DNA of 24,000 nt from Stella humosa (GTDB taxonomy: Bacteria > Pseudomonadota > Alphaproteobacteria > ATCC43930 > Allostellaceae), in NCBI RefSeq assembly GCF_006738645.1, contig NZ_AP019700.1:5242351-5266350 (forward strand), in the 5' to 3' direction. Below the pieces are notes generated by a model that was not told the origin of the DNA, made no database searches, and saw nothing but the letters and a program-made list of their open reading frames with translations. The position numbers were made by a program, and so were the translations under genes. Of the stretch, positions 1 to 23,663 are shown piece after piece. Position 1 is the stretch's first letter. Each line of letters starts with the position of its first letter.

Positions 1-571
1 GCGCCTCGGCGATGCCGGGGGCGACGACGGCCAGCGAGGTGTTCTTCGAGGCCGCGATCGACTGGAAACTGTTCATGATGCCCCACACCGTGCCGAGCAG
101 GCCGATGAAGGGGGCCGTCGAGCCGACCGAGGCCAGGAACGACATGTACTTCTCCAGACGCTCCATCTCCCGGCTGGCGGCCACGCCCATCACCCGCTCG
201 ATCCGGTCCTGGAGGTTGCCGCGCATCGATTCCGTGGCGATCAGCCCGCGGGCGGCCGACCGGCGCCATTCCCGCATCGCCGAGGCGAACACGGTCGCCA
301 TCGGGTCGGCGGGCCGAGTGCCGACCCGGTCGTAGAGATCGTCGAGCGAGCCGCCGGACCAGAAGCTCTCCTCGAACTCGCGGGCCCGCGCATTCAGCCG
401 ACGCAGCCGGACCCACTTGTCGAAGATCACCGCCCAGCACCAGAACGACAGGACGAGCAGGATCAGCATGACGAACTTCACGATCATGTCGGCCTGGAGG
501 AACAACCCCCAGATCGACAGGTCGTGCGCCGACCCGCCCAGGGTCATGGCATCTACGGCACGGTTCTCCAT
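1..571 (-). CDS. tolQ: TolQ (MotA/TolQ/ExbB proton-channel family), 3' end truncated by window edge
   Basis: Absent from the ORF track because it runs off the window. Hand translation of the reverse strand gives MENRAVDAMTLGGSAHDLSIWGLFLQADMIVKFVMLILLVLSFWCWAVIFDKW...MSFLASVGSTAPFIGLLGTVWGIMNSFQSIAASKNTSLAVVAPGIAEA. It carries the TolQ/ExbB signature GLLGTVWGI and lies 17 nt downstream of ybgC, as in ybgC-tolQRA operons. Start is ATG 571, or the in-frame ATG 547. Confidence 0.85.
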   Translation of the reverse strand, partial: MENRAVDAMTLGGSAHDLSIWGLFLQADMIVKFVMLILLVLSFWCWAVIFDKWVRLRRLNARAREFEESFWSGGSLDDLYDRVGTRPADPMATVFASAMREWRRSAARGLIATESMRGNLQDRIERVMGVAASREMERLEKYMSFLASVGSTAPFIGLLGTVWGIMNSFQSIAASKNTSLAVVAPGIAEA

Positions 572-588
572 CAGACTATGGCTCGCAT

Positions 589-1065
589 TTACAGGGTTGA
601 TTGTGGCGTCACCAAGGCCTCCAGCGCCGTGCGCAGCACGGGCGGAAGCCGCGTCGCGCGGCCGTGGACACGGTCGATGCAGGCAAGCCTTACGGACAGG
701 CGGGCCAGTTCCTCGGGCGGGGTCCCGTCGGCCCGGCGCCAGACCGCCTGCATGAGGTCGAGACGCGCCGCGCCGACGTCGACCACGGTCGAGACGACCT
801 CCAGCCGGTCGTCGAGTCGCGCGGGCGAGAGGTAGTCGGCGGTGCAGCGGCGCACCGCCCACAGCACGCCCGCCTCGCCCATCAGGCGGCCATGCTCGGT
901 GCCGGCCGCCCGCATCATCTCGGTGCGGGCCCGCTCGGCGAACCGCAGATAGTTGGCGTAGTAGACGATGCCGGCCGCATCCGTGTCCTCGTAATAGACG
1001 CGGAGCGGGAAGGCATGCCGGCCGGCGTCGAGCCGGCCCGAGGTGGGTTGCTCAGCCACTGCCAA
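589..1065 (-). CDS. ybgC: YbgC-type acyl-CoA thioesterase (4HBT hotdog fold)
   Basis: ORF track 589..1065. Contains [34 protein letters not shown], typical of YbgC/4HBT, and sits between ruvB and tolQ. The only available starts are TTG 1065 or GTG 1059, both overlapping the ruvB 3' end. Confidence 0.85.
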
Positions 1066-2104
1066 CCTCGTCGCTGGCCAGCAGGTCGAACTGGGTCGGC
1101 GGCACCGCGCGCGGCGGCAGGCCGAGATAGCCGTAGGTCTGGTTGGTGACCATGCGCCCGCGCGAGGTGCGCTGGAGGAACCCCTGCTGGATCAGGTAGG
1201 GCTCGATCACTTCCTCGATCACGTCGCGCTGCTCGGACAATGCCGCCGCCAGCGTCTCCACCCCGACCGGTCCGCCGGCATAGTTGTCGGCGATGCAGCG
1301 CAGGTAGCGCCGGTCCATCGCATCCAGCCCGCGCGCATCGACATCGAGCCGGCCCAGGGCGGCATCCGCCTCGGCCGCGCCGACGCGGCCGGTGCCGGCG
1401 ATCTCGGCGAAGTCGCGCACCCGGCGCAGCAGCCGGCCGGCGATGCGCGGCGTGCCCCGCGAGCGCCGCGCGATCTCCTCGGCCCCTTCCGGCGCCAGGT
1501 CGAAGCCCAGGATCCGGGCGCCGCGCTCGACGATGCCCTGCAACTCGTCCGGCTGGTAGAAGTCCAGGCGCAGCGGGATGCCGAAGCGATCGCGCAGCGG
1601 CGTCGTGATCAGCCCCGACCGGGTCGTGGCACCGACCAGGGTGAAGGGCGGCAGGTCGATCTTGACCGAGCGCGCCGCCGGCCCCTCGCCGATGATCAGG
1701 TCGAGCTGGAAATCCTCCATCGCCGGGTAGAGCACCTCCTCGACCGCGGGCGAGAGGCGATGGATCTCGTCGATGAAGAGGACGTCGCGCGGCTGCAGGT
1801 TGGTCAGCAGCGCCGCCAGGTCGCCGGCGCGCAGGATGACCGGGCCGGACGTGGCGCGGAAGCCGACGCCCAGTTCGCGGGCAACGATCTGGGCCAGGGT
1901 CGTCTTGCCCAGCCCGGGCGGCCCGAAGAACAGCACATGGTCGAGCGACTCGCCGCGGCCGCGCGCGGCATCGATGAAGACGCGCAGGTTGTCGCGCACC
2001 CCGCGCTGGCCGACGAACTCCTCCAGGCTGAGCGGGCGGAACGACGCCTCGGGCGCGTCCTCCCCCTGCCGCTCGGGGGCCACGGGCCGGGCGATGCCAC
2101 TCAC
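1052..2104 (-). CDS. ruvB: Holliday junction branch migration helicase RuvB
   Basis: C-terminal 350 codons of ORF 1052..2509. Walker [23 protein letters not shown], and the typical N-terminal [13 protein letters not shown] place the start at GTG 2104, which overlaps the ruvA stop as GTGA. The 135-aa Arg/Gly-rich upstream extension overlaps ruvA in another frame and looks non-coding. Confidence 0.9.
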
Positions 2105-2718
2105 TGTGCCAGCTCCGCCAGACCGCCGCGGATCAGTGCTTCGATCGGCGCGTCGACACCCAGCCGGCGCTGGACGCCGGCGACGGCGGCGAAGGCCTCG
2201 ATCCGGCGGTAGCCGAGATTGACCAGGGCCGAGACGGCATCTTCCGCCGCACCGGCGACGCGCGGCACGGCCGGGGCGGTGCCGCGGTCGCCATCCAGCG
2301 GCACGATCGCCGCCAGGCCGGTCGTCTTGTCGCGCAGTTCGTTGGCGATGCGGGCCGCCAGCTTCGGCCCGACGCCGTCGGCGCGCGCCAGCGCCGCCTT
2401 GTCCTGCAACGCGATCGCGGCCGCCAGTTCGCTCGGCCCCAGCACGGTCTGGATCGCCAGCGCCACCCGGCTGCCGACGCCCTGCACCGTCGTCAGCAGG
2501 CGAAACCACTCCCGCTCGGCGGCATCCAGGAAACCGTAGAGATGGATATGGTCCTCGCGGACATGGGTGATGACGGCCAGGCTCACCGGCTGCCCCAGGG
2601 GCGGCAACCGTCCCAGCGTCCGACCCGAGCAGTAGGCGAGATAGCCGACGCCGCCCACGTCGACGACGCAGGCATCGGTCTCGACCGAATCGAGGATGCC
2701 GGACAGCTTGGCGATCAT
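2101..2718 (-). CDS. ruvA: Holliday junction DNA-binding protein RuvA
   Basis: ORF 2101..2718, 205 aa. [12 protein letters not shown]...VDVGGVGY...LYGF...F..L..V.GVG.RVALAI is the canonical RuvA N-terminus with HhH motifs. Lies between ruvC and ruvB. Confidence 0.95.
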
Positions 2719-2731
2719 CGCGAAAGAGCGG

Positions 2732-3295
2732 TCAGGTCGCGGCGCGGGGCATCGGCACGCGCTGGCCGATGCCGGTGGCCGGCTTCAACCAGGCCCGCTG
2801 CGTCGCCCGGTGATGGGCGTGGCAGATGGCAACGGCCAGGGCATCGGCCGCGTCCGAGCGCGCCACCAGGCAGCCGGGCAGCAGCCGGCGGACCATCAGT
2901 TCCACCTGGTTCTTGTCGGCATGGCCGGCGCCGACCACAGACTTCTTGATCAGGTTGGCCGAATATTCGTGGACCGCGACGCCGCGCTCGGCCGGGGCCA
3001 GCAGGGCGATGCCGCGGGCATGGCCCAGCTTCAGGGTCGAGGCCGGGTTCTTGTTGACGAAGGTCTCTTCCACCGCCGCCTCGCCCGGCCCGAATTCGTC
3101 GATCACCGCACCCAAGCCGCGATAGAGCTCCACCAGCCGCTCGGCCAGGGACAGCCGCTCGTTGGACGAGATGGTGCCGTCGGCGACATGGCTGAGGCGG
3201 CTGCCGGCCACGTCGACCACGCCCCAGCCGGTGTGCCGCAAGCCCGGGTCGAGGCCGATCAGCCGCACCCGGTCGCTGTCGACCGAGCGCGCCAT
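2732..3295 (-). CDS. ruvC: Crossover junction endodeoxyribonuclease RuvC
   Basis: ORF 2732..3382, trimmed to ATG 3295 ([27 protein letters not shown]...). RuvC catalytic N-terminus IGLDPG and the C-terminal [14 protein letters not shown] motif. The upstream 29 codons are Arg-rich and run toward the yebC end. Confidence 0.9.
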
Positions 3296-3332
3296 CGTGG
3301 CGCTGGCGGCGGGAGGGCGCCCCGGGGACAAG

Positions 3333-4082
3333 TCAGTCGCCCGTCCGGGCCATCGCCGTCTCGCTCGCCTCGAAGTTCGCATGGACGTTCTGCACGTCGT
3401 CGTTGTCGTCCAGCGTCTCGAGCAGCTTGAACAGCGTCACCGCGGTCTCGTCGTCGACCGGCGTCACGGTACGCGGCCGCCAGGCGAAGGCGGCACTCTC
3501 GGCCGGCCCCAGCTTGGCCTCCAGCGCCTCGCGCACGGCGTTGAGGGCGTCGGTCGCGCACAGGATGTCGTAGCCACCTTCATCCGACTCGACATCGTCG
3601 GCGCCGGCCTCGACCGCCTGCTCGAACAGCGTGTCGGCGTCGCCGGCCTTGGCGGGATAGCGTACCAGGCCCATACGGTCGAAGAGGAAGCCGACGCTGT
3701 TGGTCTCGCCCAGCGCGCCGCCATGCTTGGAAAAGGCCGACCGGACCTCGGCTGCGGTGCGGTTGCGGTTGTCGGTCAGGGCCTCGACGATGACCGCGAC
3801 GCCGCCCGGGCCATAGCCCTCGTAGCGGACTTCCTCGTAGTTGGTCCCGTCCTCGCCGCCGGCGCCGCGCTTGACCGCGCGCTCGATCGTGTCCTTGGGC
3901 ATGTTGGCGTCGCGCGCCGCGATCATCGCTGCCCGCAGGCGCGGATTGGACGCCGGGTCGGGCAGGCCGGTGCGCGCGGCAACGGTCAACTCGCGGATGA
4001 TCTTGGTGAAGACCTTGCCGCGCTTCTTATCCTGCGCACCCTTGCGGTGCATGATGTTCTTGAATTGGGAATGGCCCGCCAT
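3333..4082 (-). CDS. yebC: YebC/PmpR (TACO1) family DNA-binding regulator
   Basis: ORF 3333..4082, 249 aa. [37 protein letters not shown] is the invariant YebC N-terminus. Shows the classic yebC-ruvC linkage. Confidence 0.95.
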
Positions 4083-6557: not shown

Positions 6558-7214
6558 TTAATCCCCCGCGGCAGCGGCCGGATAGAACGCGGCCTCGGTG
6601 ACGATGGCGTCCAGCCGGGCGTCGTGCGGGCCGGCCGGGACCCGGTCGCAGAACTGGCCGTCGAAGGCGACCCCGATCGCGCGGACGGTGCGGCGCGCGC
6701 GCAACCCGGCCAGGGTCCGGTCGTAGAAGCCGCCGCCATAGCCCATGCGCCGCCCGGCGGCGTCAAAGGCCAGGAGCGGCACCAGCAAGAGATCTGGCTC
6801 GGCCGCAGGCGCCTCTGGCAGCGGCTCGGAGAGGCCGAAGGGGCGCGCCCGCAGGGGATCGCCCGGCCGCCATTGCCGGAAGGTGAGCGGCAGCCCGCGA
6901 CGCGGCGTGACCGGCAGGCAGAGCGTGCAACCGGCCGCCGCCAGGCGCGCCATCAGCGGCCGCGGATCCATTTCCTCGCCGATCGGGAAATAGCCGGATA
7001 CCACGGTTTCAGGCGTCACGGCGGGGATGGCGGCGAGGAAGCGATCGGCCAGCCGATCGCCTGCATCGGGGCCGGCATGGCGTGCGGCGTCGGACCGGCG
7101 CAGGGTGGCGGCGACGCGGAAGGTCGCCTTCTCGTGCTCCAGGTCGGTATCGCGGTCAGCCGAAGGTGAGATGGCCGAAGATAAGGTGGACGGGGCCGCC
7201 TCGGCCGTAGGCAT
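6558..7214 (-). CDS. ygfA: 5-formyltetrahydrofolate cyclo-ligase
   Basis: ORF 6558..7268. C-terminal LLLVPLLAFDAAGRRMGYGGGFYDRTL is the MTHFS/5-FCL signature. The start is uncertain. GTG 7268 and ATG 7214 both lie inside the predicted 6S RNA, and no canonical start exists between 7184 and the conserved core (only CTG 7142 or ATC 7172). Confidence 0.75.
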   Translation of the reverse strand: MPTAEAAPSTLSSAISPSADRDTDLEHEKATFRVAATLRRSDAARHAGPDAGDRLADRFLAAIPAVTPETVVSGYFPIGEEMDPRPLMARLAAAGCTLCLPVTPRRGLPLTFRQWRPGDPLRARPFGLSEPLPEAPAAEPDLLLVPLLAFDAAGRRMGYGGGFYDRTLAGLRARRTVRAIGVAFDGQFCDRVPAGPHDARLDAIVTEAAFYPAAAAGD

Positions 7215-7351
7215 TGCTAAACCCTCCGTGGCCTGCGAACGCAGGTGGGCGCCATGTATCGCGACCACGGTCGCGACAGGGACAGCTCCCTAGAGGTTAT
7301 GAAAGGCCCCGGGGTGACAGCGTCCTGACGCACCAGGCAGCTCCGTCCACC
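7185..7351 (-). ncRNA. ssrS: Candidate 6S RNA
   Basis: It occupies the zapA to 5-FCL interval, the classical zapA-ssrS-ygfA synteny. The reverse-strand 167-nt sequence has a long closing stem. 5' GGUGGACGGAGCUGCCU (7351-7335) pairs with AGGCGGCCCCGUCCACC 3' (7201-7185): 15 Watson-Crick pairs, 1 G-U, 1 mismatch. Further helical segments and internal hairpins lie at 7259-7276 and 7232-7245. No covariance-model search was possible. Confidence 0.6.
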
Positions 7352-14086: not shown

Positions 14087-14905
14087 ATGGCCCGCCCCTC
14101 CCCCGTCATCAACGTGATGACGCTCACCGCCCGCAAGGCGGCCAGGGAACTGGTCCGCGATTTCGGCGAGGTCGAGCAGCTCCAGGTATCCCGCAAGGGC
14201 CCGGCGGACTTCGTCAGCGCCGCCGACCTGCGCGCCGAGAAGACTATCTTCCGCGAGCTGTCCAAGGCACGGCCGGGCTACGGCTTCCTGATGGAAGAAG
14301 GGTCGGGCGCCACCGCCGAGGGCGACGGTCGCCACCGCTGGATCGTCGATCCGCTGGACGGGACGACCAACTTCCTGCACGGCGTGCCGCATTTCGCCAT
14401 CTCGATCGCGCTCGAAGTCGACGGCGAGATCGTGGCCGGCGTCGTCCACCAGCCGCTCACCGACGAGACCTATTGGGCCGAGCGCGGCCAGGGCGCGCAC
14501 CTCAATGACCGGCGCCTGCGCGTGTCGTCGCGGGCCAAGCTCGAGGACGCGCTGATCGGGACGGGCATCCCCTTCAAGGGCGAAGAGGGCCACGGCCACT
14601 ATCTGGGCACGCTGGCGCGGATCACGCCGATGGTCAGCGGCGTGCGCCGCATGGGAGCGGCCGCCCTCGACCTCGCCTACGTCGCGGCCGGACGCTACGA
14701 GGCCTTCTGGGAATTCGACCTGAAGCCGTGGGACATCGCGGCCGGCATCCTGCTGGTCCGCGAGGCCGGCGGCTACGTCACCACCCCCGGCGGCGATCCC
14801 AACGTGCTGCCGAGCGGCGATATCCTGGCTGCGAACGACCGCCTGCACCAACCGCTGGCGGAGCTGATCCGCTCGGTTCCGCGGACGGTCGACGCCGCCG
14901 CCTGA
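14087..14905 (+). CDS. suhB: Inositol monophosphatase family protein (SuhB-like)
   Basis: ORF 14087..14905, 272 aa. IMPase motifs FLMEEGS, WIVDPLDGTTNFLHG and WDIAAG. Confidence 0.9.
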   Translation: MARPSPVINVMTLTARKAARELVRDFGEVEQLQVSRKGPADFVSAADLRAEKTIFRELSKARPGYGFLMEEGSGATAEGDGRHRWIVDPLDGTTNFLHGVPHFAISIALEVDGEIVAGVVHQPLTDETYWAERGQGAHLNDRRLRVSSRAKLEDALIGTGIPFKGEEGHGHYLGTLARITPMVSGVRRMGAAALDLAYVAAGRYEAFWEFDLKPWDIAAGILLVREAGGYVTTPGGDPNVLPSGDILAANDRLHQPLAELIRSVPRTVDAAA

Positions 14906-15014: not shown

Positions 15015-15910
15015 ATGACGCATCACCGATCGAGCCGCATGGTCACCGCCGCCTGCACCGGCCTGCTCTTCCTGGCCGGAACCTCAGCCACGCCCGCGCG
15101 CGCGGCGGGCGATGTCCATGTCGATCTGAGTGCGCTGGATCAGCTTGGCTTCACCGCCGGCCGCGGCCGCGGCAATGCCCCGGCCCTGACCCTGAAGCCG
15201 CCGGGCGAGGTCGCACCGCCGGCCGCCCGCCCCGCCGCCGCGCCGTCGCCGGTGGCTGCACCCGCACCGGCCCCGCCAGCACCGCCCCCACCCGTCGCGG
15301 CACCCGCCCCGACAGCCCCGCCGCCGGTCCGCGCGGTCGTCGCACCGCCGCCGCCGGCCGTAGCACCGCCGCCCGCGGCCCCTTCGACCCCGGCGCCCCG
15401 GATCGCAGCGGCACCGCCCTCGCCTGCTCCAACACCGCCTGCTCCGACACCGCCGGCCGCCACGCCGGCACCCCCGCCCCTTCCAGCACCGCAGGCAGCC
15501 GCCCCGGCCCGGGTGGCCCCGCCGCCGCCGGTGGTGGCACCCCCGCCGTCACGCCGCCGCAGACGGCCGCCCTGGCCCCGCCGCCCGTGGCCCAGCGCCG
15601 TGGCGAGGTGCGGGTCGCCTTCCCGGCCGGCGGCAGCGAACTGCCGAACGCCGCCCGCGGCGAACTCGACCAGATGGCCCGCCGCCTGGCCGGCGACGAG
15701 GCGCTGCGCCTGCAACTCAACGCCTATGCCAGCGAGACCGGCGACCAGTCGAGCCAGGCGCGCCGGCTGTCCCTGTCGCGCGCGCTGGCCGTCCGCGCCT
15801 ACCTGATCGACAAGGGCGTGCGCAGCACCCGCCTGGACGTCCGCGCGATCGGCAAGACACAGGATGACGGGCCGGCCGACCGGGTCGACCTCGTCGTGGT
15901 CGGGCGCTGA
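15015..15910 (+). CDS. Secreted Pro/Ala-rich OmpA_C-domain protein, interrupted by an apparent single-base frameshift (possible pseudogene or sequence error)
   Basis: The frame of ORF 14937..15806 gives, from ATG 15015, a signal peptide (MTHHRSSRMVTAACTGLLFLAGTSATPARAAGD) and about 150 aa of Pro/Ala-rich linker, then degenerates into Arg/Trp/Cys-rich nonsense after about 15550. The frame of ORF 14939..15910 is nonsense before about 15500 and then encodes a clean OmpA_C domain (VRVAFPAGGSELPNAARGELDQMARRLAGD...LSLSRALAVRAYLIDKGV...RVDLVVV). Confidence 0.6.
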
Positions 15911-15959
15911 TGCCAATGGCCCTGCCCCTCGACCTGCCCGACCGCAGCAGGCCCCGCCG

Positions 15960-17102
15960 GTGACCAATCCGCGCCGGTTCCTCTTCCGGATGGTGGTCTT
16001 CCTGATCCTCGTGGTCGGGGCACTGGCGCTGCTCTATCCCGGCCTGGAAAAGGCCTTCCTGGCCAAGCCGGCCCTGAACGGCATGATCGTCGGGATCATC
16101 CTGTTCGGCATCGTCTACATCGTCCGCCAGGTGCTTCAGCTCGAGCCGGAGGCCGCCTGGGCCGACACGCTGCGGCGCAGCGAGCCCGGCCTCTCGGTCA
16201 TGCGGCCGCCGCGCCTGCTGGGGCCGGTGGCGGCCATCCTGCAGGAACGGCGGGGCCGGCCCAGCCTGTCGGCGCCGGCCCAGCGCTCGCTGCTGGACGG
16301 GCTCAGCTCCCGCCTCGACGAAACCCGCGACATCTCGCGCTACCTGATCGGGCTGCTGGTCTTCCTCGGCCTGCTCGGCACCTTCTGGGGCCTGCTGGAG
16401 ACGGTGGCCGCCGTCAGCCGCGTCGTCTCCAACCTGTCGGTCACCGGCGTCGACATGGGCCAGGCGCTGAACAACCTCCAGCGCGGGCTGGAAACGCCGT
16501 TGGCCGGCATGGGCACGGCCTTCAGCTCGTCGCTGTTCGGGCTGGGCGGGTCGCTGGTGCTGGGCTTCCTCGACCTCCAGGCGGGGCAGGCGCAGAACCG
16601 TTTCTACAACGAGATCGAGGACTGGCTGGCGAGCCTGACCCGGCTGTCGGGCGGCACGCCGGTGAGCGACGGCGACCAGTCCGTGCCGGCTTACATCCAG
16701 GCGCTGCTGGAACAGACCGCCGACAACATGGAGAACCTCCAGCGGATCATGATCCGCGGCGAGGACAGCCGGATCCAGGCCAACGCCAACCTGACCGCGC
16801 TGACCGAGCGGCTGGGCACGCTGACCGACCAGATGCGCGCCGAGCAGTCGCTGATGCTGCGCCTGGCCGAGAGCCAGGTTTCGCTGGAGCCGCTGCTGGA
16901 ACGGTTGACCCAGGCCACCGGCAAGGGCGGCATGGACGAGGAGGCCCAGCACCAGCTCCGCGCCATCGAGCGCCAGATGGCCCGCCTGATCGACACCACC
17001 GAGCAGGCCAGTGCGGCGGCCGCCCAGGAAGTCCGCGCCGAGATCCGCATCCTCGCCCGCACGATCGCCGCCCTGGCCGACGAGCCCGAGCGCAGGCGCT
17101 AG
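15960..17102 (+). CDS. MotA/TolQ/ExbB-family channel protein with 4 predicted TM helices and an approximately 175-aa C-terminal coiled-coil tail
   Basis: ORF 15864..17102. I favour GTG 15960, which gives a basic N-terminus (NPRRFLFR) before TM1; ATG 15990 is the alternative. TM helices: VVFLILVVGALALLY, GMIVGIILFGIVYIV, YLIGLLVFLGLLGTFWGLLETVAAV, LAGMGTAFSSSLFGLGGSLVLGFL. The FLGLLGTFWG motif parallels the FIGLLGTVWG of the tolQ in this window. Confidence 0.75.
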   Translation: MTNPRRFLFRMVVFLILVVGALALLYPGLEKAFLAKPALNGMIVGIILFGIVYIVRQVLQLEPEAAWADTLRRSEPGLSVMRPPRLLGPVAAILQERRGRPSLSAPAQRSLLDGLSSRLDETRDISRYLIGLLVFLGLLGTFWGLLETVAAVSRVVSNLSVTGVDMGQALNNLQRGLETPLAGMGTAFSSSLFGLGGSLVLGFLDLQAGQAQNRFYNEIEDWLASLTRLSGGTPVSDGDQSVPAYIQALLEQTADNMENLQRIMIRGEDSRIQANANLTALTERLGTLTDQMRAEQSLMLRLAESQVSLEPLLERLTQATGKGGMDEEAQHQLRAIERQMARLIDTTEQASAAAAQEVRAEIRILARTIAALADEPERRR

Positions 17103-17121
17103 CGCCGGAGCCCCCTCGCAT

Positions 17122-18954
17122 ATGGCCCGATTTCGCGAGCGGCGCGGCGGCTTCGACATCTGGCCCGGGTTCGTCGATGCCCTGACCCAGCTGCTGATGG
17201 TGGTCATCTTCATCGTGCTGGTGTTCACGGTGAGCCACTTCTACCTGGGCACGGCGCTGGAAGGGCGCGACGCCACCGTGGAGCGGCTGAACCGCCAGGT
17301 GAGCGAGCTGGCCGACATGCTGGCCCTGGAGCGCACGACCGCCGAGGACCTGAAATCCGGCAACGAGCGCCTGACGCTGGCACTCGACGGCGCCACCAAG
17401 GAGCGGGCGACGCTGGCGGGCCAGCTCACGGCGCTGCTGGCCGAGCGGGACCAACTGGCCGCCCAGGCGACCGAGCGCACGGCCGAGCGCGACCGGGCGC
17501 GGACCGACCTGGCCGCGCGGTCGACCGACCTTGCCACCCGCACCGGCGAGCGCGACCAGCTTGCCCGCAACCTGACCGCGGCCGAAGCGCGGATGACGGC
17601 GGCCGCCGCCGACATCGCCCAGCTGGAGGCAGCCCAGGCCGCCGCCCAACGGACCGTGACCGCGGACAAGGCGACCATCGAGACCCAGTTGCGCGACCTG
17701 GCGCGCCTGGCCCGCGACCTGGAGGCGCTGCGCACCCTGCGCGCCGACCTGGAGCGGCGGATCGCCAACCTGTCAGCGACGCTGGCCGAGACGACGCGGG
17801 TCGCCACCGAGATCGACAGCGACCGGGCGCGCCGCCTCCGCGAGCTGTCCGAGCAGGCGACGGCCGCCGAGGCCGCCCGCACCCGCATCGCCGGCCTGGA
17901 AGAGCAGATGGCCCGGCGCGAACGCGCCCTGACCCAGGGGGCAACCGCCCTGACCGAGGCCCAGCGCCGCGGCGAAGCCCTGGCCAAGGAAAGCGAGAGC
18001 CGCGCGGCCGATATCGCCCGGCTGGAGCGGCAGGTGCGCGAGCTGGCCTCGGCCGTGGCCGAGCGCGATGCCCGCATCCGCGCGCTGTCCGGCGCCATCG
18101 ACGACGAGACCGCGCGGCGCCAGGCCGACGCCCGTACCGCCCAGCAGGCCGCAGGCGCGCTGCGCGACCGGGCGAAGGAACTGGAGGCCCGACTGGCCGG
18201 CGAGCAGGAGCGCACCCTGCTGGCGCAGCGCACGATCGAGGAGAACGCGGTGCGCCTGCGCGCCATCTTCGAGCGGGCCGAGCGTGGCGAGCGGGAACTG
18301 GAGGCCGAGCGCAAGGCCGGCGGCACGGCCCGCGAATCGGTCCGCAGCCTGTCGGTCGAGCTGGAGGCCCTGAAGGGCGAACTGGCCAAGCTGAACGCGG
18401 TGCTGGAGGCATCCGAGGTCAAGAACAAGGCCCAGCAGGTGCAGATCGTCGACCTCGGCAGCCGCCTCAACCAGGCGCTGGCGAGCAAGGTCGAGGAGCT
18501 GTCGCGCTATCGCTCGGAATTCTTCGGTCGCATGCGCACGTTGCTGGCCGACCGCCCGGATGTGGAGATCGTCGGCGACCGCTTCGTCTTCCCGGCCGAG
18601 GTCCTGTTCGCCGTCGGCTCCCCCGACCTCAACGAAACCGGCAAGGCGCGGATGGCCGACCTGGCGCGGACGCTCAAGGACATCGCCGCCACCATCCCGC
18701 CCGACCTGCCCTGGATCCTGCGCGTGGACGGCCACACCGACCGCTCGCGCGTGCGCTCGCCGATCTTCCGCAACAACTGGGACCTGTCGGCGGCGCGCGC
18801 CATCAACGTGGTGCAGTTCCTGATCGAGCAGGGCATTCCGGCCAACCGCCTGGCGGCCACCGGCTTCGGCGAATTCCAGCCGATCGACCCCGGCGGCAGC
18901 GAGCAGGCCTTCACCCGCAACCGCCGAATCGAGATGAAGCTGACCGAGCGGTAG
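17122..18954 (+). CDS. MotB-like protein: N-terminal TM anchor with conserved Asp, approximately 420-aa coiled coil, C-terminal OmpA_C/MotB peptidoglycan-binding domain
   Basis: ORF 17011..18954, trimmed to ATG 17122, 19 nt after the upstream stop. MARFRERRGGFDIWPGFVDALTQLLMVVIFIVLVF is a MotB/TolR/ExbD-style Asp-plus-TM. Residues about 45-465 are Ala/Arg/Glu/Leu helix. The C-terminus GDRFVFPAEVLF...LRVDGHTDRSRV...NWDLSAARAINVVQFLIEQGIPANRLAATGFGEFQP...NRRIEMKL is an OmpA_C domain. Confidence 0.8.
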   Translation: MARFRERRGGFDIWPGFVDALTQLLMVVIFIVLVFTVSHFYLGTALEGRDATVERLNRQVSELADMLALERTTAEDLKSGNERLTLALDGATKERATLAGQLTALLAERDQLAAQATERTAERDRARTDLAARSTDLATRTGERDQLARNLTAAEARMTAAAADIAQLEAAQAAAQRTVTADKATIETQLRDLARLARDLEALRTLRADLERRIANLSATLAETTRVATEIDSDRARRLRELSEQATAAEAARTRIAGLEEQMARRERALTQGATALTEAQRRGEALAKESESRAADIARLERQVRELASAVAERDARIRALSGAIDDETARRQADARTAQQAAGALRDRAKELEARLAGEQERTLLAQRTIEENAVRLRAIFERAERGERELEAERKAGGTARESVRSLSVELEALKGELAKLNAVLEASEVKNKAQQVQIVDLGSRLNQALASKVEELSRYRSEFFGRMRTLLADRPDVEIVGDRFVFPAEVLFAVGSPDLNETGKARMADLARTLKDIAATIPPDLPWILRVDGHTDRSRVRSPIFRNNWDLSAARAINVVQFLIEQGIPANRLAATGFGEFQPIDPGGSEQAFTRNRRIEMKLTER

Positions 18955-18961
18955 GGCGCGC

Positions 18962-19285
18962 TTACGCCGCCGCGGCCGGAATGGCCACGCCGAGATCAGC
19001 CGACAGCACGTCCTCCAACACTTCGTTCCCGCGGGTGGAAACCCAGCGCCCACCCGCCTCGTCCGGCGCGAAGTGCCAGGCGCCGGAGCGCGGCGAGGAC
19101 AGCCAGATCTCGCGGTTGGGGGCGTGCTTGTTGACGACGAAGGTGCCGGTGTCATCGACCTCGATGGTCAGGATGCCGTCGCGCAGCTCGCAGTCGGCGT
19201 CCGGGCAGGCGCCCTCGATCGCGTCCATCAGGTGGCGCAGGGTACGCTCGGCCAGGGCCGAGAAGGTGCGTTCGTCGATGGCCAT
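18962..19285 (-). CDS. cyaY: Iron-sulfur cluster assembly protein CyaY (frataxin homologue)
   Basis: ORF 18962..19408, trimmed to ATG 19285. MAIDERTFSALAERTLRHLMDAIE...DGILTIEVDDTGTFVVNKHAPNREIWLSSPRSGAWHF is the CyaY/frataxin pattern. 107 aa. Confidence 0.85.
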   Translation of the reverse strand: MAIDERTFSALAERTLRHLMDAIEGACPDADCELRDGILTIEVDDTGTFVVNKHAPNREIWLSSPRSGAWHFAPDEAGGRWVSTRGNEVLEDVLSADLGVAIPAAAA

Positions 19286-20794: not shown

Positions 20795-21583
20795 CTAGAA
20801 GATTTCGGCCAGCGCCGACAGGGTCTCGTCCGGCCGCTCGGTCATGATCATGTGGCCCGCCCCCGCCAGGACGACCGTGCGGGCGCCCGCAATCGCCTGG
20901 CCCAACGGCCGCGCCCGGCCGGCCGGCGTCATCCGGTCCTCGGCCCCCAGCAGCAGCAGGGTCGGGCAGGCGACGGCAGCGGCCGCCGCGAGCGCCCCGC
21001 CATAGGCAGCGCAGGCCTCCAGGTCGGTCGCCAGGGTCTCCGGGTCGGCCTCGCCGATCAGGCGGATGCCGCCCGCCACCATCCACAGGCCGGGCGCGCG
21101 GTGGCCGCCCAACTGGGCACGCGGGCCGAAACCCCAGGAGCTCATCAGTTCCGGCGCCAGGGGGCCGCCGGCACGGGCGGCCGCCACGAGGTCGGGATGG
21201 ACCGGCATGTCCGGGGTGACGCCCAGCAGCGCCAGCGCACGGAAGCGGTCGGGAGCGGCGGCGACCCCGGCCAGCGCCACCAGGGCCCCCATGCTGTGCC
21301 CGCCGATCGCCACCCGGTCCGCGCCGGCGGCATCCAGGAGGGCCAGCACCCAGCGCCCCATGTCGGGGATGGAGGCAAGCCCCGGTCCCGCCGACCGGCC
21401 ATGGCCCGGCAGGTCGACCGCCAGCACCGAGCGGCCATGATGGGCGAGCCAGCGCGTCTGCAGCCCCCAGGCGGTATGGTCCATCCCGGCCCCATGCAGG
21501 AGCAGTACCGGCGCGCGGGCGGGATCGAACGGCTTGCCGCCGGTGGCGGCGAAGACCCGGCGGCCGTCTACGAGCAGATCCAT
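20795..21583 (-). CDS. Alpha/beta-fold hydrolase
   Basis: ORF 20795..21583, 262 aa. Oxyanion-hole LLLHGAGMD, nucleophile elbow GGHSMGA, C-terminal GAGHMIM His motif. Confidence 0.85.
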
Positions 21584-21596
21584 CGCGCCTGCCCCC

Positions 21597-22916
21597 TCAG
21601 CCCTTGACCGGTGCCGGCTGGGTCGCGCGCTCGGCCGCGCGCAGCGCCTGCTTCAGGTCGTCGATGATGTCGCCCGCATCCTCCAGCCCGACCGACAGGC
21701 GGATCATGTCCTCGCCCACCCCGGCCGCCGCCAGCGCCTCGGCATCGAGCTGCTGGTGGGTGGTGCTGGCCGGGTGGATCACCAGCGTCTTGGCGTCGCC
21801 GACATTGGCCAGGTGCGAGACCAGCCCCAGCCGGTCGATGAAGACGCGGCCGGCCTCGCGCCCGCCCTTGATGCCGAAGGCGATCATGCTGCCCGCCCCG
21901 CGGGGCATCAGGCGCCGGGCCAGCGCATGGTCGGGATGGTCGGGCAGGTCGGGGTGGCAGACCCAGGCGACCTGCGGGGCGGCCTTGAGGAAATCCAGGA
22001 TCGCGCGGGTGTTGGCGACGTGCCGGTCCATGCGGAGCGGCAGCGTCTCGATCCCTTGCAGGATGTGGAAGGCGTTGGTCGGCGACATGGCCGCGCCGAA
22101 GTCGCGCAGGCCCTCGGCGCGGGCGCGCATGATGAAGGCGAGCGGGCCGTACTCCTCGGCGAAGTCGATGCCGTGATAGCCGGCATAGGGCTCGGTCAGG
22201 GTCGGGAAGCGGCCCGAGCCTTCCCAGTCGAAGCGGCCGGAATCGACGATGACACCACCGATCGCCACGCCATGCCCGCCCATCCACTTGGTGGCCGAAT
22301 GCATCACCAGGTCGGCGCCATGGTCCATCGACCGGCAGAGATAGGGGGTGGAGAAGGTGGCATCGACCAGCAGCGGCAGGCCGTGGGCATGGGCCACCGC
22401 CGACAGGGCCGGCAGGTCGACGATCTCCAGCCCCGGATTGCCCACCGTCTCGACGAACACCAGCCGGGTTTCCGGCCGCATGGCGCGGGCGAACGCCTCG
22501 GGGTCGCGCGGCGGCACGAAGGTCGTCTCGATGCCGAAGCGCGGCAGGGTCAGCTTCAGCAGGTTGATGCTGCCGCCATAGAGCGAGGCTGCTGCCACGA
22601 TATGGCCGCCCGCCCCCATCAGGGTGGCGATGGCGAGGTGCAGGGCCGCCTGGCCGCTGGCGGTGCAGATGGCCCCCACCCCGCCCTCGAGCGCGGCGAT
22701 GCGCTCTTCCAACACCGCCACGGTGGGGTTGGAGATGCGCGAATAGATATGGCCGGGCCGTTCGAGGTTGAACAGCGAGGCGGCGTGGTCCGTGCTCTGG
22801 AACACGAACGAGGTCGTCTGATAGATGGGCACGGCGCGCGCGCCATGGACCGGATCGGGCTGCTGGCCGGCATGGAGGCTGAGCGTGTGGAAACCTGGAA
22901 ACTTGGGCTCGGCCAT
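21597..22916 (-). CDS. metY: O-acetylhomoserine aminocarboxypropyltransferase/sulfhydrylase (PLP-dependent, Cys/Met metabolism family)
   Basis: ORF 21597..23381, trimmed to ATG 22916, which has GAGGA 8 nt upstream. [39 protein letters not shown]...YSRISNPT...[13 protein letters not shown]...[15 protein letters not shown] contains the PLP Lys. Confidence 0.9.
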
Positions 22917-22985
22917 GGTCCCCATCCTCGATCGTCGGGCCGGCACCATACACGGGCCGCATGGCCGCCCGGAAGCCTCGCCCGC

Positions 22986-23663
22986 ATGATCCTGGCGGGC
23001 GTCGACGGCTGCCGCGGCGGCTGGATCATGGTCGCCCGCGACATGGCGACGGACGATTGGCGCGTCCATCACTTCGCCCGCTGGGACGAGCGGCCGCCGG
23101 CCGACCTGACGGCGGTCGACATGCCGATCGGCCTGCCGGACAGCGGCCAGCGCGGCTGCGACTTCGCGGCCCGGGGGCTGCTGGGCCGCCATCGCCAAGC
23201 CAGCGTCTTCATCGGCCTGCGCCGGCCGCTGCTCGATTTCGCCGACTATCCCACGGCCAACGCCTGGGCCAAGGCCGACGGGTCCGGCCTGTCGAAACAG
23301 GCCTGGTTCCTGCTGCCGCGGATTGCCGAGATCGACCGGGCGATGGGCCCCGCCGATCAGGAACGGGTCCGGGAATGCCATCCCGAACTGGCCTTCCTGC
23401 GCCTGGCGGGCGAGCCGCTGGTACAGTCCAAGCGCACGGCGGAAGGGCTGGAGCGCCGGCGCCGGCTGCTGGAGGCGGCCGGCATCGACACCAGCCGGCT
23501 GCTGACTGGCCTCGATCGCCGCATGGCAGCGGCCGACGACCTGTTCGACGCCGCCGCCATCTGCCTGACCGCCGGCCGCATCGCCGCCGGCAGCGCCACA
23601 CGCCTGCCGGCCGGCGACCCGCCCGCGGACGGCCGGGGCTTGCGCATGGAGATCTGGTACTGA
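22986..23663 (+). CDS. DUF429-like protein (predicted RNase H-fold nuclease family)
   Basis: Last 225 codons of the 709-aa ORF 21534..23663, from ATG 22986. MILAGVDGCRGGWIMV...AVDMPIGLP...R.CD..AR.LLG.R.SSVF...HPELAF resembles DUF429. The preceding part of the ORF is antisense to metY and non-coding in character. Confidence 0.6.
   Translation: MILAGVDGCRGGWIMVARDMATDDWRVHHFARWDERPPADLTAVDMPIGLPDSGQRGCDFAARGLLGRHRQASVFIGLRRPLLDFADYPTANAWAKADGSGLSKQAWFLLPRIAEIDRAMGPADQERVRECHPELAFLRLAGEPLVQSKRTAEGLERRRRLLEAAGIDTSRLLTGLDRRMAAADDLFDAAAICLTAGRIAAGSATRLPAGDPPADGRGLRMEIWY

What the first reader, a model, noticed from the sequence alone, without database searches (positions are those of the whole stretch)
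15015..18954. Orphan MotA/MotB-type stator-like operon with a secreted OmpA-domain partner, outside any flagellar, Tol, TonB or Zorya context
Three co-directional genes (15015-15910, 15960-17102, 17122-18954; gaps of 49 and 19 nt) sit between unrelated housekeeping genes: suhB upstream and a convergent cyaY 7 nt downstream. Gene 2 has four predicted TM helices and the channel signature of the MotA/TolQ/ExbB family (FLGLLGTFWGLLETV; LAGMGTAFSSSLFGLGGSLVLGFL). This is directly comparable with the bona fide TolQ at the other end of this window (FIGLLGTVWGIMNSF). Gene 3 has the MotB/TolR/ExbD/ZorB-style N-terminus: a short basic segment, then a single TM helix with an Asp at its cytoplasmic edge (WPGFVDALTQLLMVVIFIVLVF, Asp19). 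It also has a C-terminal OmpA_C/MotB peptidoglycan-binding domain. Gene 1 adds a second, secreted OmpA_C domain on a Pro/Ala linker. This is the parts list of an ion-driven 5:2 rotary or stator unit with two cell-wall anchors. No fli/flg/che, tolR/tolA/tolB/pal, tonB or zorC/D/E genes adjoin it, so the mechanical output is unknown. I do not recognise it as any characterised system.
Basis: partly seen in the sequence, partly recalled or inferred. Interest (0 to 1): 0.75.

Follow-up and report, generated by a model that had tools for sequence, protein, structure and literature searches.

The report
Conserved non-flagellar stator-like motor of Alphaproteobacteria
This is a real three-gene operon for a probable proton-driven, cell-wall-anchored membrane motor of the Tol/Exb/Zorya type; it is not an orphan but a core module conserved across Alphaproteobacteria, and nobody knows what it does.

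Summary
The window is Stella humosa. Genes 2 (15960-17102) and 3 (17122-18954) are as described. Gene 1 is not one ORF here: its signal-peptide and OmpA halves are in different frames, and an independent assembly carries 4 extra bases that join them.

Gene 2 is a 4-TM protein whose predicted fold matches TolQ, ExbB and ZorA, not flagellar MotA. It has a conserved 135-residue cytoplasmic helical tail. Gene 3 has a MotB-type TM helix (WPGFVDAL; Asp kept in 119 of 120 homologues), about 430 residues of periplasmic coiled coil and a MotB-type peptidoglycan-binding domain. It meets NCBIfam PRK09039.

The pair is not orphan. It sits in the same efp-suhB-...-rpmE block in 78 of 80 loci and in Sinorhizobium meliloti (SMc03993/SMc03992). 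Gene 1 is present in 58 of 80 loci and absent in S. meliloti.

Primer sequences indicate that the "motA/motB" genes studied in non-flagellated Komagataeibacter hansenii belong to this family. Reported phenotypes are elongated cells, polar foci and viable knockouts.

Best reading: a housekeeping, non-flagellar 5:2 ion-driven motor anchored to the cell wall, with unknown output, probably in envelope or cell-shape functions. I class it as a new variant of a known kind. Interest 0.6.

The parts
15015..15539 (+). Gene 1, 5' part: signal peptide (cleavage likely after ARA), the conserved mature N-terminal motif DVHVDLSALDQLG, and a Pro/Ala-rich linker. This frame runs on to a stop at 15806.
   Evidence: ORF list. 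Homologues carry a signal peptide followed by V.VDLSVL..LG.
15540..15910 (+). Gene 1, 3' part in a different frame: a degenerate OmpA-like domain. The frames are joined only if the 4 bases (CCAC) seen in assembly L081 are restored after 15539.
   Evidence: Pfam OmpA 3e-12. Indel mapped. Repaired ORF is 299 aa. NAYAS replaces GHTD.
15960..17102 (+). Gene 2: the A subunit, a 4-TM TolQ/ExbB/ZorA-like channel protein. It carries FLGLLGTFWGLLET (TM3) and GMGTAFSSSLFGLGGSL (TM4) and a conserved cytoplasmic helical tail (residues 244-378).
   Evidence: AF2 pLDDT 77. Foldseek finds TolQ, ZorA and ExbB. PADLOC ZorA1 1.8e-13. hhalign to the window's own TolQ gives E 2.3e-5. There are 934 clusters at E<=1e-30.
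17122..18954 (+). Gene 3: the B subunit. It has an N-terminal TM helix with Asp19 (WPGFVDAL), three long periplasmic helices (15-177, 186-340, 345-475) and a C-terminal MotB-type peptidoglycan-binding domain (GHTD, NWDLSAARA).
   Evidence: NCBIfam NF006543 scores 428 bits against a cut-off of 305. Asp kept in 119 of 120 homologues. AF2 model. Foldseek finds MotB, MotS and PomB PG-binding domains at TM 0.73-0.82.
14087..14905 (+). suhB (inositol monophosphatase), the conserved upstream neighbour. It is not part of the system.
18962..19285 (-). cyaY (frataxin-like), the convergent downstream neighbour that bounds the operon.
   Evidence: Pfam Frataxin_Cyay.

Best explanation
Genes 2 and 3 most likely encode the two subunits of a non-flagellar, ion-driven (probably proton-driven) 5:2 motor of the TolQR/ExbBD/ZorAB kind. 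It is conserved as a housekeeping module across Alphaproteobacteria.

Inferred mechanism: five copies of gene 2 form a ring around two gene 3 TM helices. Protonation and deprotonation of gene 3 Asp19, facing the conserved Thr/Ser of gene 2 TM3 and TM4, turn the ring relative to gene 3. Gene 3 is held on the peptidoglycan by its MotB-type domain, at the end of a long periplasmic coiled-coil stalk.

The output is unknown. There are two candidates. One is the highly conserved cytoplasmic tail of gene 2, a short version of the ZorA tail. The other is the conserved blocks of the gene 3 coiled coil.

Gene 1 is a lineage-restricted periplasmic accessory: a secreted protein with a short conserved N-terminal strand motif, a Pro-rich tether and a degenerate OmpA-like domain. 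It is possibly analogous to Pal or MotY.

The likeliest physiological area is envelope, cell-shape or cell-pole homeostasis.

Shown here: gene structure, homology, fold, conserved residues, synteny and distribution. Inferred: stoichiometry, ion flow, rotation, partner and physiological role.
For: - Fold of gene 2: the best PDB matches are E. coli TolQ (9ddn_E, E 5e-4), type I ZorA (8vvn_D, TM 0.53, 19% id) and ExbB (5sv0/5sv1, TM 0.52-0.55). Flagellar MotA appears only near rank 50.
- The GLLGT.WG motif is shared with the window's own TolQ.
- PADLOC matches ZorA1 at 1.8e-13 and ZorB3 at 2.8e-22.
- The gene 3 WPGFVDAL Asp is kept in 119 of 120 homologues. Its C-terminal domain matches MotB, MotS and PomB PG-binding domains and retains GHTD and LSxxRA.
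- Operon signs: gaps of 49 and 19 nt here; gene 2/gene 3 overlap (ATGA) in S. meliloti; the gene 1 stop overlaps the gene 2 start in Acetobacteraceae.
- Conservation: gene 3 follows gene 2 in 78 of 80 loci; the efp-suhB and rpmE synteny is kept; the same block occurs in S. meliloti at 41-53% identity.
- Gene 2 shares about 60% identity across orders, including the tail.
- Not mobile: no homologue in 2.9 million viral contigs, and the neighbours are housekeeping genes.
- Non-flagellar: the family is present in K. hansenii, which the authors say has no other motility genes. Stella is described as non-motile (my own knowledge, not tested).
- K. hansenii phenotypes: overexpression gives elongated cells, GFP fusions sit at the poles, and disruptants are viable with denser cellulose. 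Translated primers place those genes in this family.
Against: - No complex was modelled or measured. The 5:2 stoichiometry and ion flow are inferred by homology only.
- Pfam MotA_ExbB is below threshold (16.3 against 22.9 bits) and no MotB_plug was detected.
- The gene 2 profile finds no PDB sequence at E<1. Foldseek E-values are modest and TM-scores are only about 0.5.
- The K. hansenii link rests on short translated primers, not full sequences. Reported lengths there (348 and 321 aa) are shorter than here.
- The K. hansenii phenotypes come from overexpression and are indirect.
- Nothing here identifies the output partner or the physiological role.
Confidence: 0.65

Rival explanations
1. It is a second flagellar stator set (MotAB-type) that serves a flagellum encoded elsewhere, as the PGAP name 'flagellar motor protein MotA' implies.
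For: The names given by sources. The 4-TM topology and the MotB-type PG-binding domain. NCBIfam MotD, MotS and MotB models hit the C-terminal domain at 1e-16 to 1e-22, all far below their cut-offs.
Against: The fold matches TolQ, ExbB and ZorA ahead of MotA. The TM2-TM3 cytoplasmic loop is only about 65 residues. The synteny is with housekeeping genes, not fla or che genes. The family is present in K. hansenii, which is reported to lack flagellar genes. Flagellated Azospirillum and S. meliloti carry it in addition to their known stators (their stators are my own knowledge). The 150-430 residue coiled coil in the B subunit is unlike any flagellar MotB.
Confidence: 0.04
2. It is a Zorya-like anti-phage sensor: a ZorAB-type motor that detects envelope damage and signals through the gene 2 tail.
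For: The best sequence-profile matches for both subunits are ZorA1 and ZorB3. ZorA is among the top fold matches with the highest identity. The architecture (A subunit with a C-terminal cytoplasmic helical tail plus B subunit with an OmpA-type anchor) is that of ZorAB.
Against: No ZorC, ZorD or ZorE, and no nuclease or helicase, lies nearby. The position is fixed among core genes across orders rather than in variable islands. Conservation is about 60% identity. There are no viral homologues. The tail is about 135 residues, against more than 400 in ZorA.
Confidence: 0.06
3. It is a passive inner-membrane-to-peptidoglycan tether or periplasmic spacer that descends from a motor but no longer conducts ions.
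For: The long coiled coil of variable length (342 to 628 aa proteins) resembles spacer proteins such as Lpp or TolA domain II (my own knowledge). Knockouts are viable in K. hansenii.
Against: The Asp and the channel Thr/Ser/Gly motifs are almost invariant across the family, which is not expected if ion conduction were lost. The cytoplasmic tail of gene 2 is also strongly conserved.
Confidence: 0.1
4. It is a Tol-Pal paralogue that acts at the division site or cell pole. Gene 3 would combine TolR-like, TolA-like (long helix) and Pal-like (PG-binding) roles, and gene 1 would be a second Pal-like partner. This is a specific version of the best explanation.
For: TolQ is the top fold match. K. hansenii shows elongated cells on overexpression and polar or bipolar foci. 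In S. meliloti the pair lies two genes from rgsF, a polar-growth factor that co-purifies with Tol proteins. A ChvI-bound fragment maps inside SMc03993.
Against: A full Tol-Pal system exists separately. There is no TolB-like gene. The rgsF adjacency is absent from the 80 other loci. SMc03993 and SMc03992 were not found in the Rgs/Tol pull-down tables held here. The ChvI screen gave many intragenic fragments.
Confidence: 0.25

Closest known systems
ZorAB (motor core of the Zorya anti-phage system)
   Same: The A subunit has the TolQ/ExbB-type fold plus a C-terminal cytoplasmic helical tail. The B subunit has an Asp-bearing TM helix and an OmpA/MotB-type peptidoglycan anchor. ZorA1 and ZorB3 are the best profile hits, and ZorA is a top fold hit with the highest identity, 19%.
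   Different: There are no ZorC, ZorD or ZorE genes. It is a core syntenic gene pair, not a defence island. The tail is about 135 residues rather than more than 400. The long coiled coil is on the periplasmic B subunit instead. There is an extra secreted OmpA-like partner.
TolQ-TolR(-TolA)/Pal
   Same: TolQ is the top structural match. The GLLGT.WG motif is shared with the genome's own TolQ. It combines an inner-membrane motor, a long periplasmic helix and OmpA-type PG-binding modules.
   Different: Gene 2 has 4 TM helices and an N-in topology, whereas TolQ has 3. Gene 3 carries a MotB-type OmpA domain, which TolR lacks. There is no TolA, TolB or lipoprotein Pal. A separate bona fide Tol-Pal locus exists in the same genome.
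Flagellar stators MotAB / PomAB / MotPS
   Same: The 4-TM A-subunit topology. The B-subunit W..[FY].D motif. The PG-binding domain is closest to those of MotB, PomB and MotS.
   Different: The A-subunit fold ranks below TolQ, ExbB and ZorA. There is no large cytoplasmic torque-generating domain and no plug detected. The B subunit has a 150-430 residue coiled coil. The context and hosts are non-flagellar.
K. hansenii 'MotA/MotB' (Jacek et al. 2019, PMC6570709)
   Same: Probably the same family. Translated primers give MTRPTTY, TLYQAF and NVSMVL for MotA, and MARRSR, AITVVK and EFRLTDR* for MotB. These match family positions 1-7, 28-33 and 54-58 of gene 2, and the OmpA-domain and C-terminal positions of gene 3.
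   Different: Only primer-length sequence could be compared. The reported proteins are shorter (348 and 321 aa). That study interpreted them as motility genes.
NCBIfam PRK09039 'peptidoglycan-binding protein' (NF006542-NF006546)
   Same: Gene 3 passes the NF006543 cut-off (428 against 305 bits). The S. meliloti orthologue is annotated with this name.
   Different: It is a name without a function. The Stella protein has two extra coiled-coil inserts.

Membership tests
MotA/TolQ/ExbB channel superfamily (A subunit of 5:2 motors) | Pfam PF01618 match at the gathering threshold | tested here: not met
   16.3 bits against a cut-off of 22.9, E 0.008.
MotA/TolQ/ExbB channel superfamily (A subunit of 5:2 motors) | Fold of the TM core with long helices extending into the cytoplasm | tested here: met
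   The AF2 model (pLDDT 77) matches TolQ, ExbB and ZorA chains, probability 1.0, TM(target) 0.45-0.55.
MotA/TolQ/ExbB channel superfamily (A subunit of 5:2 motors) | Conserved GLLGT.(W)G motif and Thr/Ser in the last two TM helices | tested here: met
   G137-L145, T141 and T148 are invariant; G183, M184 and S191 are invariant and T186 nearly so, among 54 sequences. The motif aligns to the window's own TolQ.
MotA/TolQ/ExbB channel superfamily (A subunit of 5:2 motors) | Pentamer around a B-subunit dimer (5:2) | not testable with these tools
   No multimer prediction was available.
MotB/ZorB-type B subunit | Single N-terminal TM helix with a conserved Asp near its cytoplasmic end | tested here: met
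   WPGFVDAL is present in 119 of 120 homologues. One hydrophobic segment spans residues 13-47.
MotB/ZorB-type B subunit | C-terminal OmpA-like PG-binding domain with GHTD and LSxxRA | tested here: met
   Pfam OmpA 1.5e-15. The motifs are seen. Foldseek matches MotB, MotS and PomB domains at TM 0.73-0.82.
MotB/ZorB-type B subunit | Plug helix (PF13677 MotB_plug) | tested here: not met
   No MotB_plug hit at E<0.01. A conserved post-TM helix, LSGRD.AL.RLN.QV, exists, but its role is unknown.
Flagellar stator (MotAB/PomAB) | Large cytoplasmic TM2-TM3 domain that contacts FliG; flagellar gene context | tested here: not met
   The loop is about 65 residues. MotA ranks near 50 in the fold search. 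There are no fla or che genes in the window or in the 80 loci examined for the tested neighbours.
Zorya | ZorC/ZorD (type I) or ZorE (type II) genes next to zorAB | tested here: not met
   The neighbours are suhB, efp, thiE, cyaY, rpmE and hsp20. The position is fixed across orders.
Tol-Pal | tolR, tolA, tolB and pal adjacent to the channel gene; 3-TM TolQ | tested here: not met
   None is adjacent. The genome's tolQ lies elsewhere. Gene 2 has an extra N-terminal TM helix.
ExbBD-TonB | ExbD-type B subunit without an OmpA domain; TonB partner | tested here: not met
   The B subunit has a MotB-type OmpA domain. No TonB-like gene lies in the window.
NCBIfam PRK09039 (NF006543) | Score above the curated cut-off | tested here: met
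   428.2 bits against a cut-off of 305.
OmpA-like PG-binding domain (gene 1) | Pfam OmpA at threshold, plus the Asp of GHTD and the Arg of LSxxRA that bind the peptide stem | tested here: inconclusive
   Pfam OmpA passes at 47.2 bits against 27.2. GHTD is replaced by NAYAS, while LSLSRA is kept. The same replacement (AYAA) is seen in homologues.

The most novel reading that the evidence does not exclude
The pair is a fourth housekeeping class of 5:2 ion-driven motor in diderm bacteria, alongside Mot, Tol and Exb, and is specific to and near-universal in Alphaproteobacteria. It would couple the proton gradient to the cell wall through a long periplasmic coiled-coil B subunit, and to the cytoplasm through a short ZorA-like tail. 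It would act in cell-pole, division or envelope homeostasis. It could also represent the housekeeping lineage from which Zorya-type defence motors were recruited.
Probability: 0.3. Interest if true: 0.8.

Novelty: new variant of a known kind. Interest (0 to 1): 0.6.

Why it matters
5:2 rotary motors are a small set of machines that carry membrane energy to the cell envelope: flagellar rotation, Tol-Pal, TonB uptake, gliding and Zorya defence. Each new output has been a significant discovery.

This one is highly conserved (about 60% identity for the channel subunit) and is fixed in a core-gene block in Rhodospirillales, Acetobacteraceae and Rhizobiaceae. It therefore occurs in plant symbionts and in industrial cellulose and acetic-acid bacteria. 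It has no assigned function and is mis-annotated as a flagellar protein.

It also contradicts a recent generalisation that non-flagellar relatives lack OmpA-type anchors (PMC12505986). Genetically tractable hosts exist, such as S. meliloti SMc03993/SMc03992 and Azospirillum, so the question can be tested directly.

Tried and rejected
- **Rgs polar-growth proteins.** I recalled these as a possible match. The paper shows none has a MotA or OmpA domain. rgsF is a neighbour only in S. meliloti.
- **S. meliloti locus tags.** I briefly doubted SMc03993 = gene 2, because one paper calls SMc03994 'ribosomal protein S21'. Mapping a published PhaR motif and the ChvI fragment coordinates onto L083 confirmed SMc03993 = gene 2.
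- **Third homologue search.** I used an Asaia query hoping to pull out named Komagataeibacter proteins. None appeared in the top 120, so I used the published primers instead.
- **PDB sequence search with the gene 2 profile.** It returned only coiled-coil noise.
- **Promoter and terminator scan.** Nothing was found in this 71% G+C region.
- **Literature.** Searches for PRK09039, stator-like terms and SMc tags found no functional study.
- **Viral contigs.** No homologue was found.
- **Tandem repeats.** Only short Pro-codon repeats occur in the gene 1 linker.

Full report
**Source and gene structure**

Gene 2 is 100% identical to a Stella humosa protein, so the window comes from that alphaproteobacterium (71% G+C).

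The ORF list confirms gene 2 at 15960-17102. It starts with GTG, and its N-terminus MTNPRRF aligns with the start of all homologues. Gene 3 is at 17122-18954, and an independent gene call gives the same 610-aa product. The gaps are 49 and 19 nt. suhB lies upstream. cyaY converges and ends 7 nt after gene 3.

Gene 1 as reported (15015-15910) is 896 nt and cannot be one ORF.
- The signal peptide and Pro/Ala linker are in one frame, which stops at 15806.
- The OmpA-like domain is in another frame, which stops at 15910.
- An independent assembly of S. humosa reads (L081) has four extra bases (CCAC) and one substitution just after window position 15539.
- With these bases the gene is a continuous 299-aa ORF.
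- The sister species has an intact 313-aa gene that is 82% identical in the OmpA-like part.

The window copy is therefore an assembly error or a strain-specific lesion. I could not decide which.

**Surroundings**

Pfam and Rfam give this map:

tolQ (5' part, 2-571, -), ybgC, ruvB, ruvA, ruvC, yebC, an amidase, ymdB, 5-FTHF cyclo-ligase, 6S RNA (7189-7346, -), zapA, tkt, gap, an aldolase, thiE, efp, suhB, the triad, cyaY (-), rpmE, hsp20, a thioesterase (-), an alpha/beta hydrolase (-), and a Cys/Met PLP enzyme (-).

No flagellar, chemotaxis, TonB or Zorya accessory gene is present. The genome's real Tol-Pal locus starts at the far left edge.

**Gene 2**

- Pfam MotA_ExbB is only sub-threshold (16.3 against 22.9 bits).
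- No NCBIfam model matches.
- A family profile finds no solved structure by sequence.
- PADLOC ZorA models do match, ZorA1 at 1.8e-13.
- A profile comparison with the window's own TolQ aligns the FLGLLGTFWGL and FIGLLGTVWGI regions (E 2.3e-5).

An AlphaFold2 model from 54 homologues (pLDDT 77) is all-helical. It has TM1 (5-24), TM2 (37-72, running into the cytoplasm), two very long helices through TM3 and TM4 (105-159 and 166-227), a disordered hinge (229-243) and a helical tail (244-378).

Foldseek against the PDB returns E. coli TolQ first. Type I ZorA follows (TM 0.53, the highest identity at 19%), then ExbB (TM 0.52-0.55). A flagellar MotA appears only near rank 50.

The channel motifs and many tail residues are invariant in 54 sequences. 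The family comprises 934 clusters (at 50% identity) at E<=1e-30 in 1.84 billion representatives.

**Gene 3**

- It passes the curated cut-off of NCBIfam NF006543, PRK09039 'peptidoglycan-binding protein' (428 against 305 bits).
- Its N-terminus WPGFVDALTQLLMVVIF is a MotB-like TM helix. The Asp is kept in 119 of 120 homologues, and the exception is a mis-called start.
- No MotB_plug domain is detected.
- The AF2 model has three long helices (15-177, 186-340, 345-475) separated by two hinges, then a globular domain.
- The best structural matches of that domain are MotB-like DVU_2228, MotS, H. pylori MotB and PomB (TM 0.73-0.82). Sequence search agrees.
- GHTD and NW(D/E)LSxxRA are conserved.
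- Homologues range from 342 aa (S. meliloti) to about 630 aa. The alignment shows conserved coiled-coil blocks interrupted by two variable inserts, both expanded in Stella.

The coiled coil is therefore not a mere spacer.

**Gene 1**

Homologues upstream of gene 2 carry four elements:
- a signal peptide;
- a conserved motif right after the predicted cleavage site (V.VDLSVL(D/N).LG; DVHVDLSALDQLG here);
- a Pro-rich linker of variable length;
- an OmpA-like domain.

That domain passes Pfam. However, it has NAYAS where gene 3 and canonical binders have GHTD, while LSLSRA is kept. Its ability to bind peptidoglycan is therefore uncertain. In several Acetobacteraceae its stop codon overlaps the gene 2 start, which suggests co-translation.

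**Distribution and synteny**

A scan of one genome per species returned more than 580 relatives. The best 80 loci are Rhodospirillales, Acetobacteraceae, Kiloniellales and similar groups.
- Gene 3 follows gene 2 in 78 of 80 loci. I attribute the two exceptions to contigs that end just after gene 2.
- The gene 1 OmpA-like gene precedes gene 2 in 58 of 80.
- suhB is present in 50, efp in 44 and rpmE in 27.
- An Atm1/MsbA-like ABC exporter lies convergent downstream in at least 15.

A mislabelled S. meliloti chromosome in the plasmid collection shows thiE-rgsF-suhB-gene 2 (368 aa)-gene 3 (342 aa, start overlapping the gene 2 stop)-ABC(-)-rpmE. Identity to the Stella proteins is 41% and 53%. There is no gene 1.

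No relative exists in 2.9 million viral contigs. The pair is thus an ancient, vertically inherited module, and gene 1 is a lineage-restricted accessory.

**Literature**

Jacek et al. (PMC6570709) overexpressed 'motA' and 'motB' of Komagataeibacter hansenii. According to the authors, that species has no other motility genes.
- Cells elongated and colonies spread more.
- GFP fusions were polar or bipolar.
- Disruptants were viable and made denser cellulose (PMC7347698).

Their primers translate to MTRPTTY, TLYQAF and NVSMVL for MotA, and to MARRSR, AITVVK and EFRLTDR-stop for MotB. These align to the family at residues 1-7, 28-33 and 54-58 of gene 2, and at the OmpA domain and the family-typical C-terminus ([LF]KLT[EDQ]R) of gene 3. 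I take this as good but not conclusive evidence that those genes belong to this family.

In S. meliloti I fixed the locus tags by mapping a published PhaR site of SMc03998 onto the locus. A ChvI-bound fragment reported as 'intra SMc03993' (PMC3687685) then falls inside the gene 2 orthologue. So gene 2 = SMc03993 and, by gene order, gene 3 = SMc03992.

Full-text search finds no functional study of either tag.

Recent surveys of MotAB relatives (PMC12505986) and of Tol/Ton force transducers (PMC12204202) do not describe this family. The first states that non-flagellar B subunits lack OmpA-type domains, to which this family, like ZorB, is an exception.

**Interpretation**

The anatomy supports a TolQ/ExbB/ZorA-type A subunit and a MotB/ZorB-type B subunit. 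By homology this means an ion-driven 5:2 motor whose B dimer is fixed to peptidoglycan.

It is not a flagellar stator, on the evidence of fold, loop size, context and hosts. It is not Tol, Ton or Zorya by membership tests. Architecturally it is closest to ZorAB with the long coiled coil moved from the cytoplasmic A tail to the periplasmic B stalk.

The output is unknown. The strongly conserved gene 2 tail and the conserved gene 3 coiled-coil blocks are the candidate interfaces. The only phenotypes on record (cell elongation, polar foci), the ChvI-bound fragment and the rgsF neighbourhood in S. meliloti point weakly to envelope, division or pole biology.

Stoichiometry, ion flow, rotation and role are inferences.

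**Verdict**

- The 'stator-like' reading is supported.
- 'Orphan' is wrong.
- 'Uncharacterised' is essentially right.
- I rate it a new variant of a known kind, with moderate to high interest.

Noticed in passing
window 15539-15540: Relative to an independent assembly of S. humosa reads (L081), the window lacks 4 bases (CCAC) and has one substitution. This splits gene 1 into two frames. It is either an assembly error in a GC-rich proline-codon run or a strain-specific frameshift.
   Followed up: yes
window 7189-7346 (-): 6S RNA (Rfam RF00013, 70.7 bits) lies between zapA and the 5-formyltetrahydrofolate cyclo-ligase gene. This is the classical zapA-ssrS-ygfA arrangement.
   Followed up: no
window 2-571 (-) and 589-3382 (-): The 5' part of a bona fide tolQ runs off the left edge. 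It is preceded by ybgC, ruvB, ruvA and ruvC, so the Tol-Pal locus starts here, 15 kb from the triad.
   Followed up: partly
L083 7056-8870 (-); L001, L019, L022 and others: An Atm1/MsbA-like ABC exporter lies convergent just downstream of gene 3 in S. meliloti and in at least 15 of the 80 loci. It is absent in Stella, where the frataxin-like cyaY abuts gene 3 instead.
   Followed up: partly
L083 2430-3575: In S. meliloti the essential polar-growth factor rgsF (SMc03995, Sel1/TPR repeats) sits two genes upstream of the gene 2/gene 3 orthologues. No RgsF homologue lies near the triad in the other 80 loci or in the window.
   Followed up: yes
L083 5247-5502 (inside the gene 2 orthologue SMc03993): A DNA fragment bound by the envelope-stress regulator ChvI in a published in vitro screen maps inside the S. 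meliloti gene 2 orthologue. This is a weak hint of a link to the ExoS/ChvI regulon.
   Followed up: partly
L008 and L026: Contigs labelled 'Patescibacteria' and 'Mycobacteriaceae' MAGs carry the alphaproteobacterial suhB-triad-cyaY-rpmE synteny. They are probably mis-binned.
   Followed up: no
window 17011-17121: The longest ORF for gene 3 starts at a GTG at 17011 and overlaps the end of gene 2. Homologues and an independent gene call support the ATG at 17122 instead.
   Followed up: yes
window 21534-23663 (+) and 21597-23381 (-): Two very long antisense ORFs overlap here. The Pfam hits resolve them into a Cys/Met PLP enzyme on the minus strand (about 21641-22886) and a DUF429 gene on the plus strand (about 22998-23618). 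The long overlaps are high-GC artefacts.
   Followed up: partly
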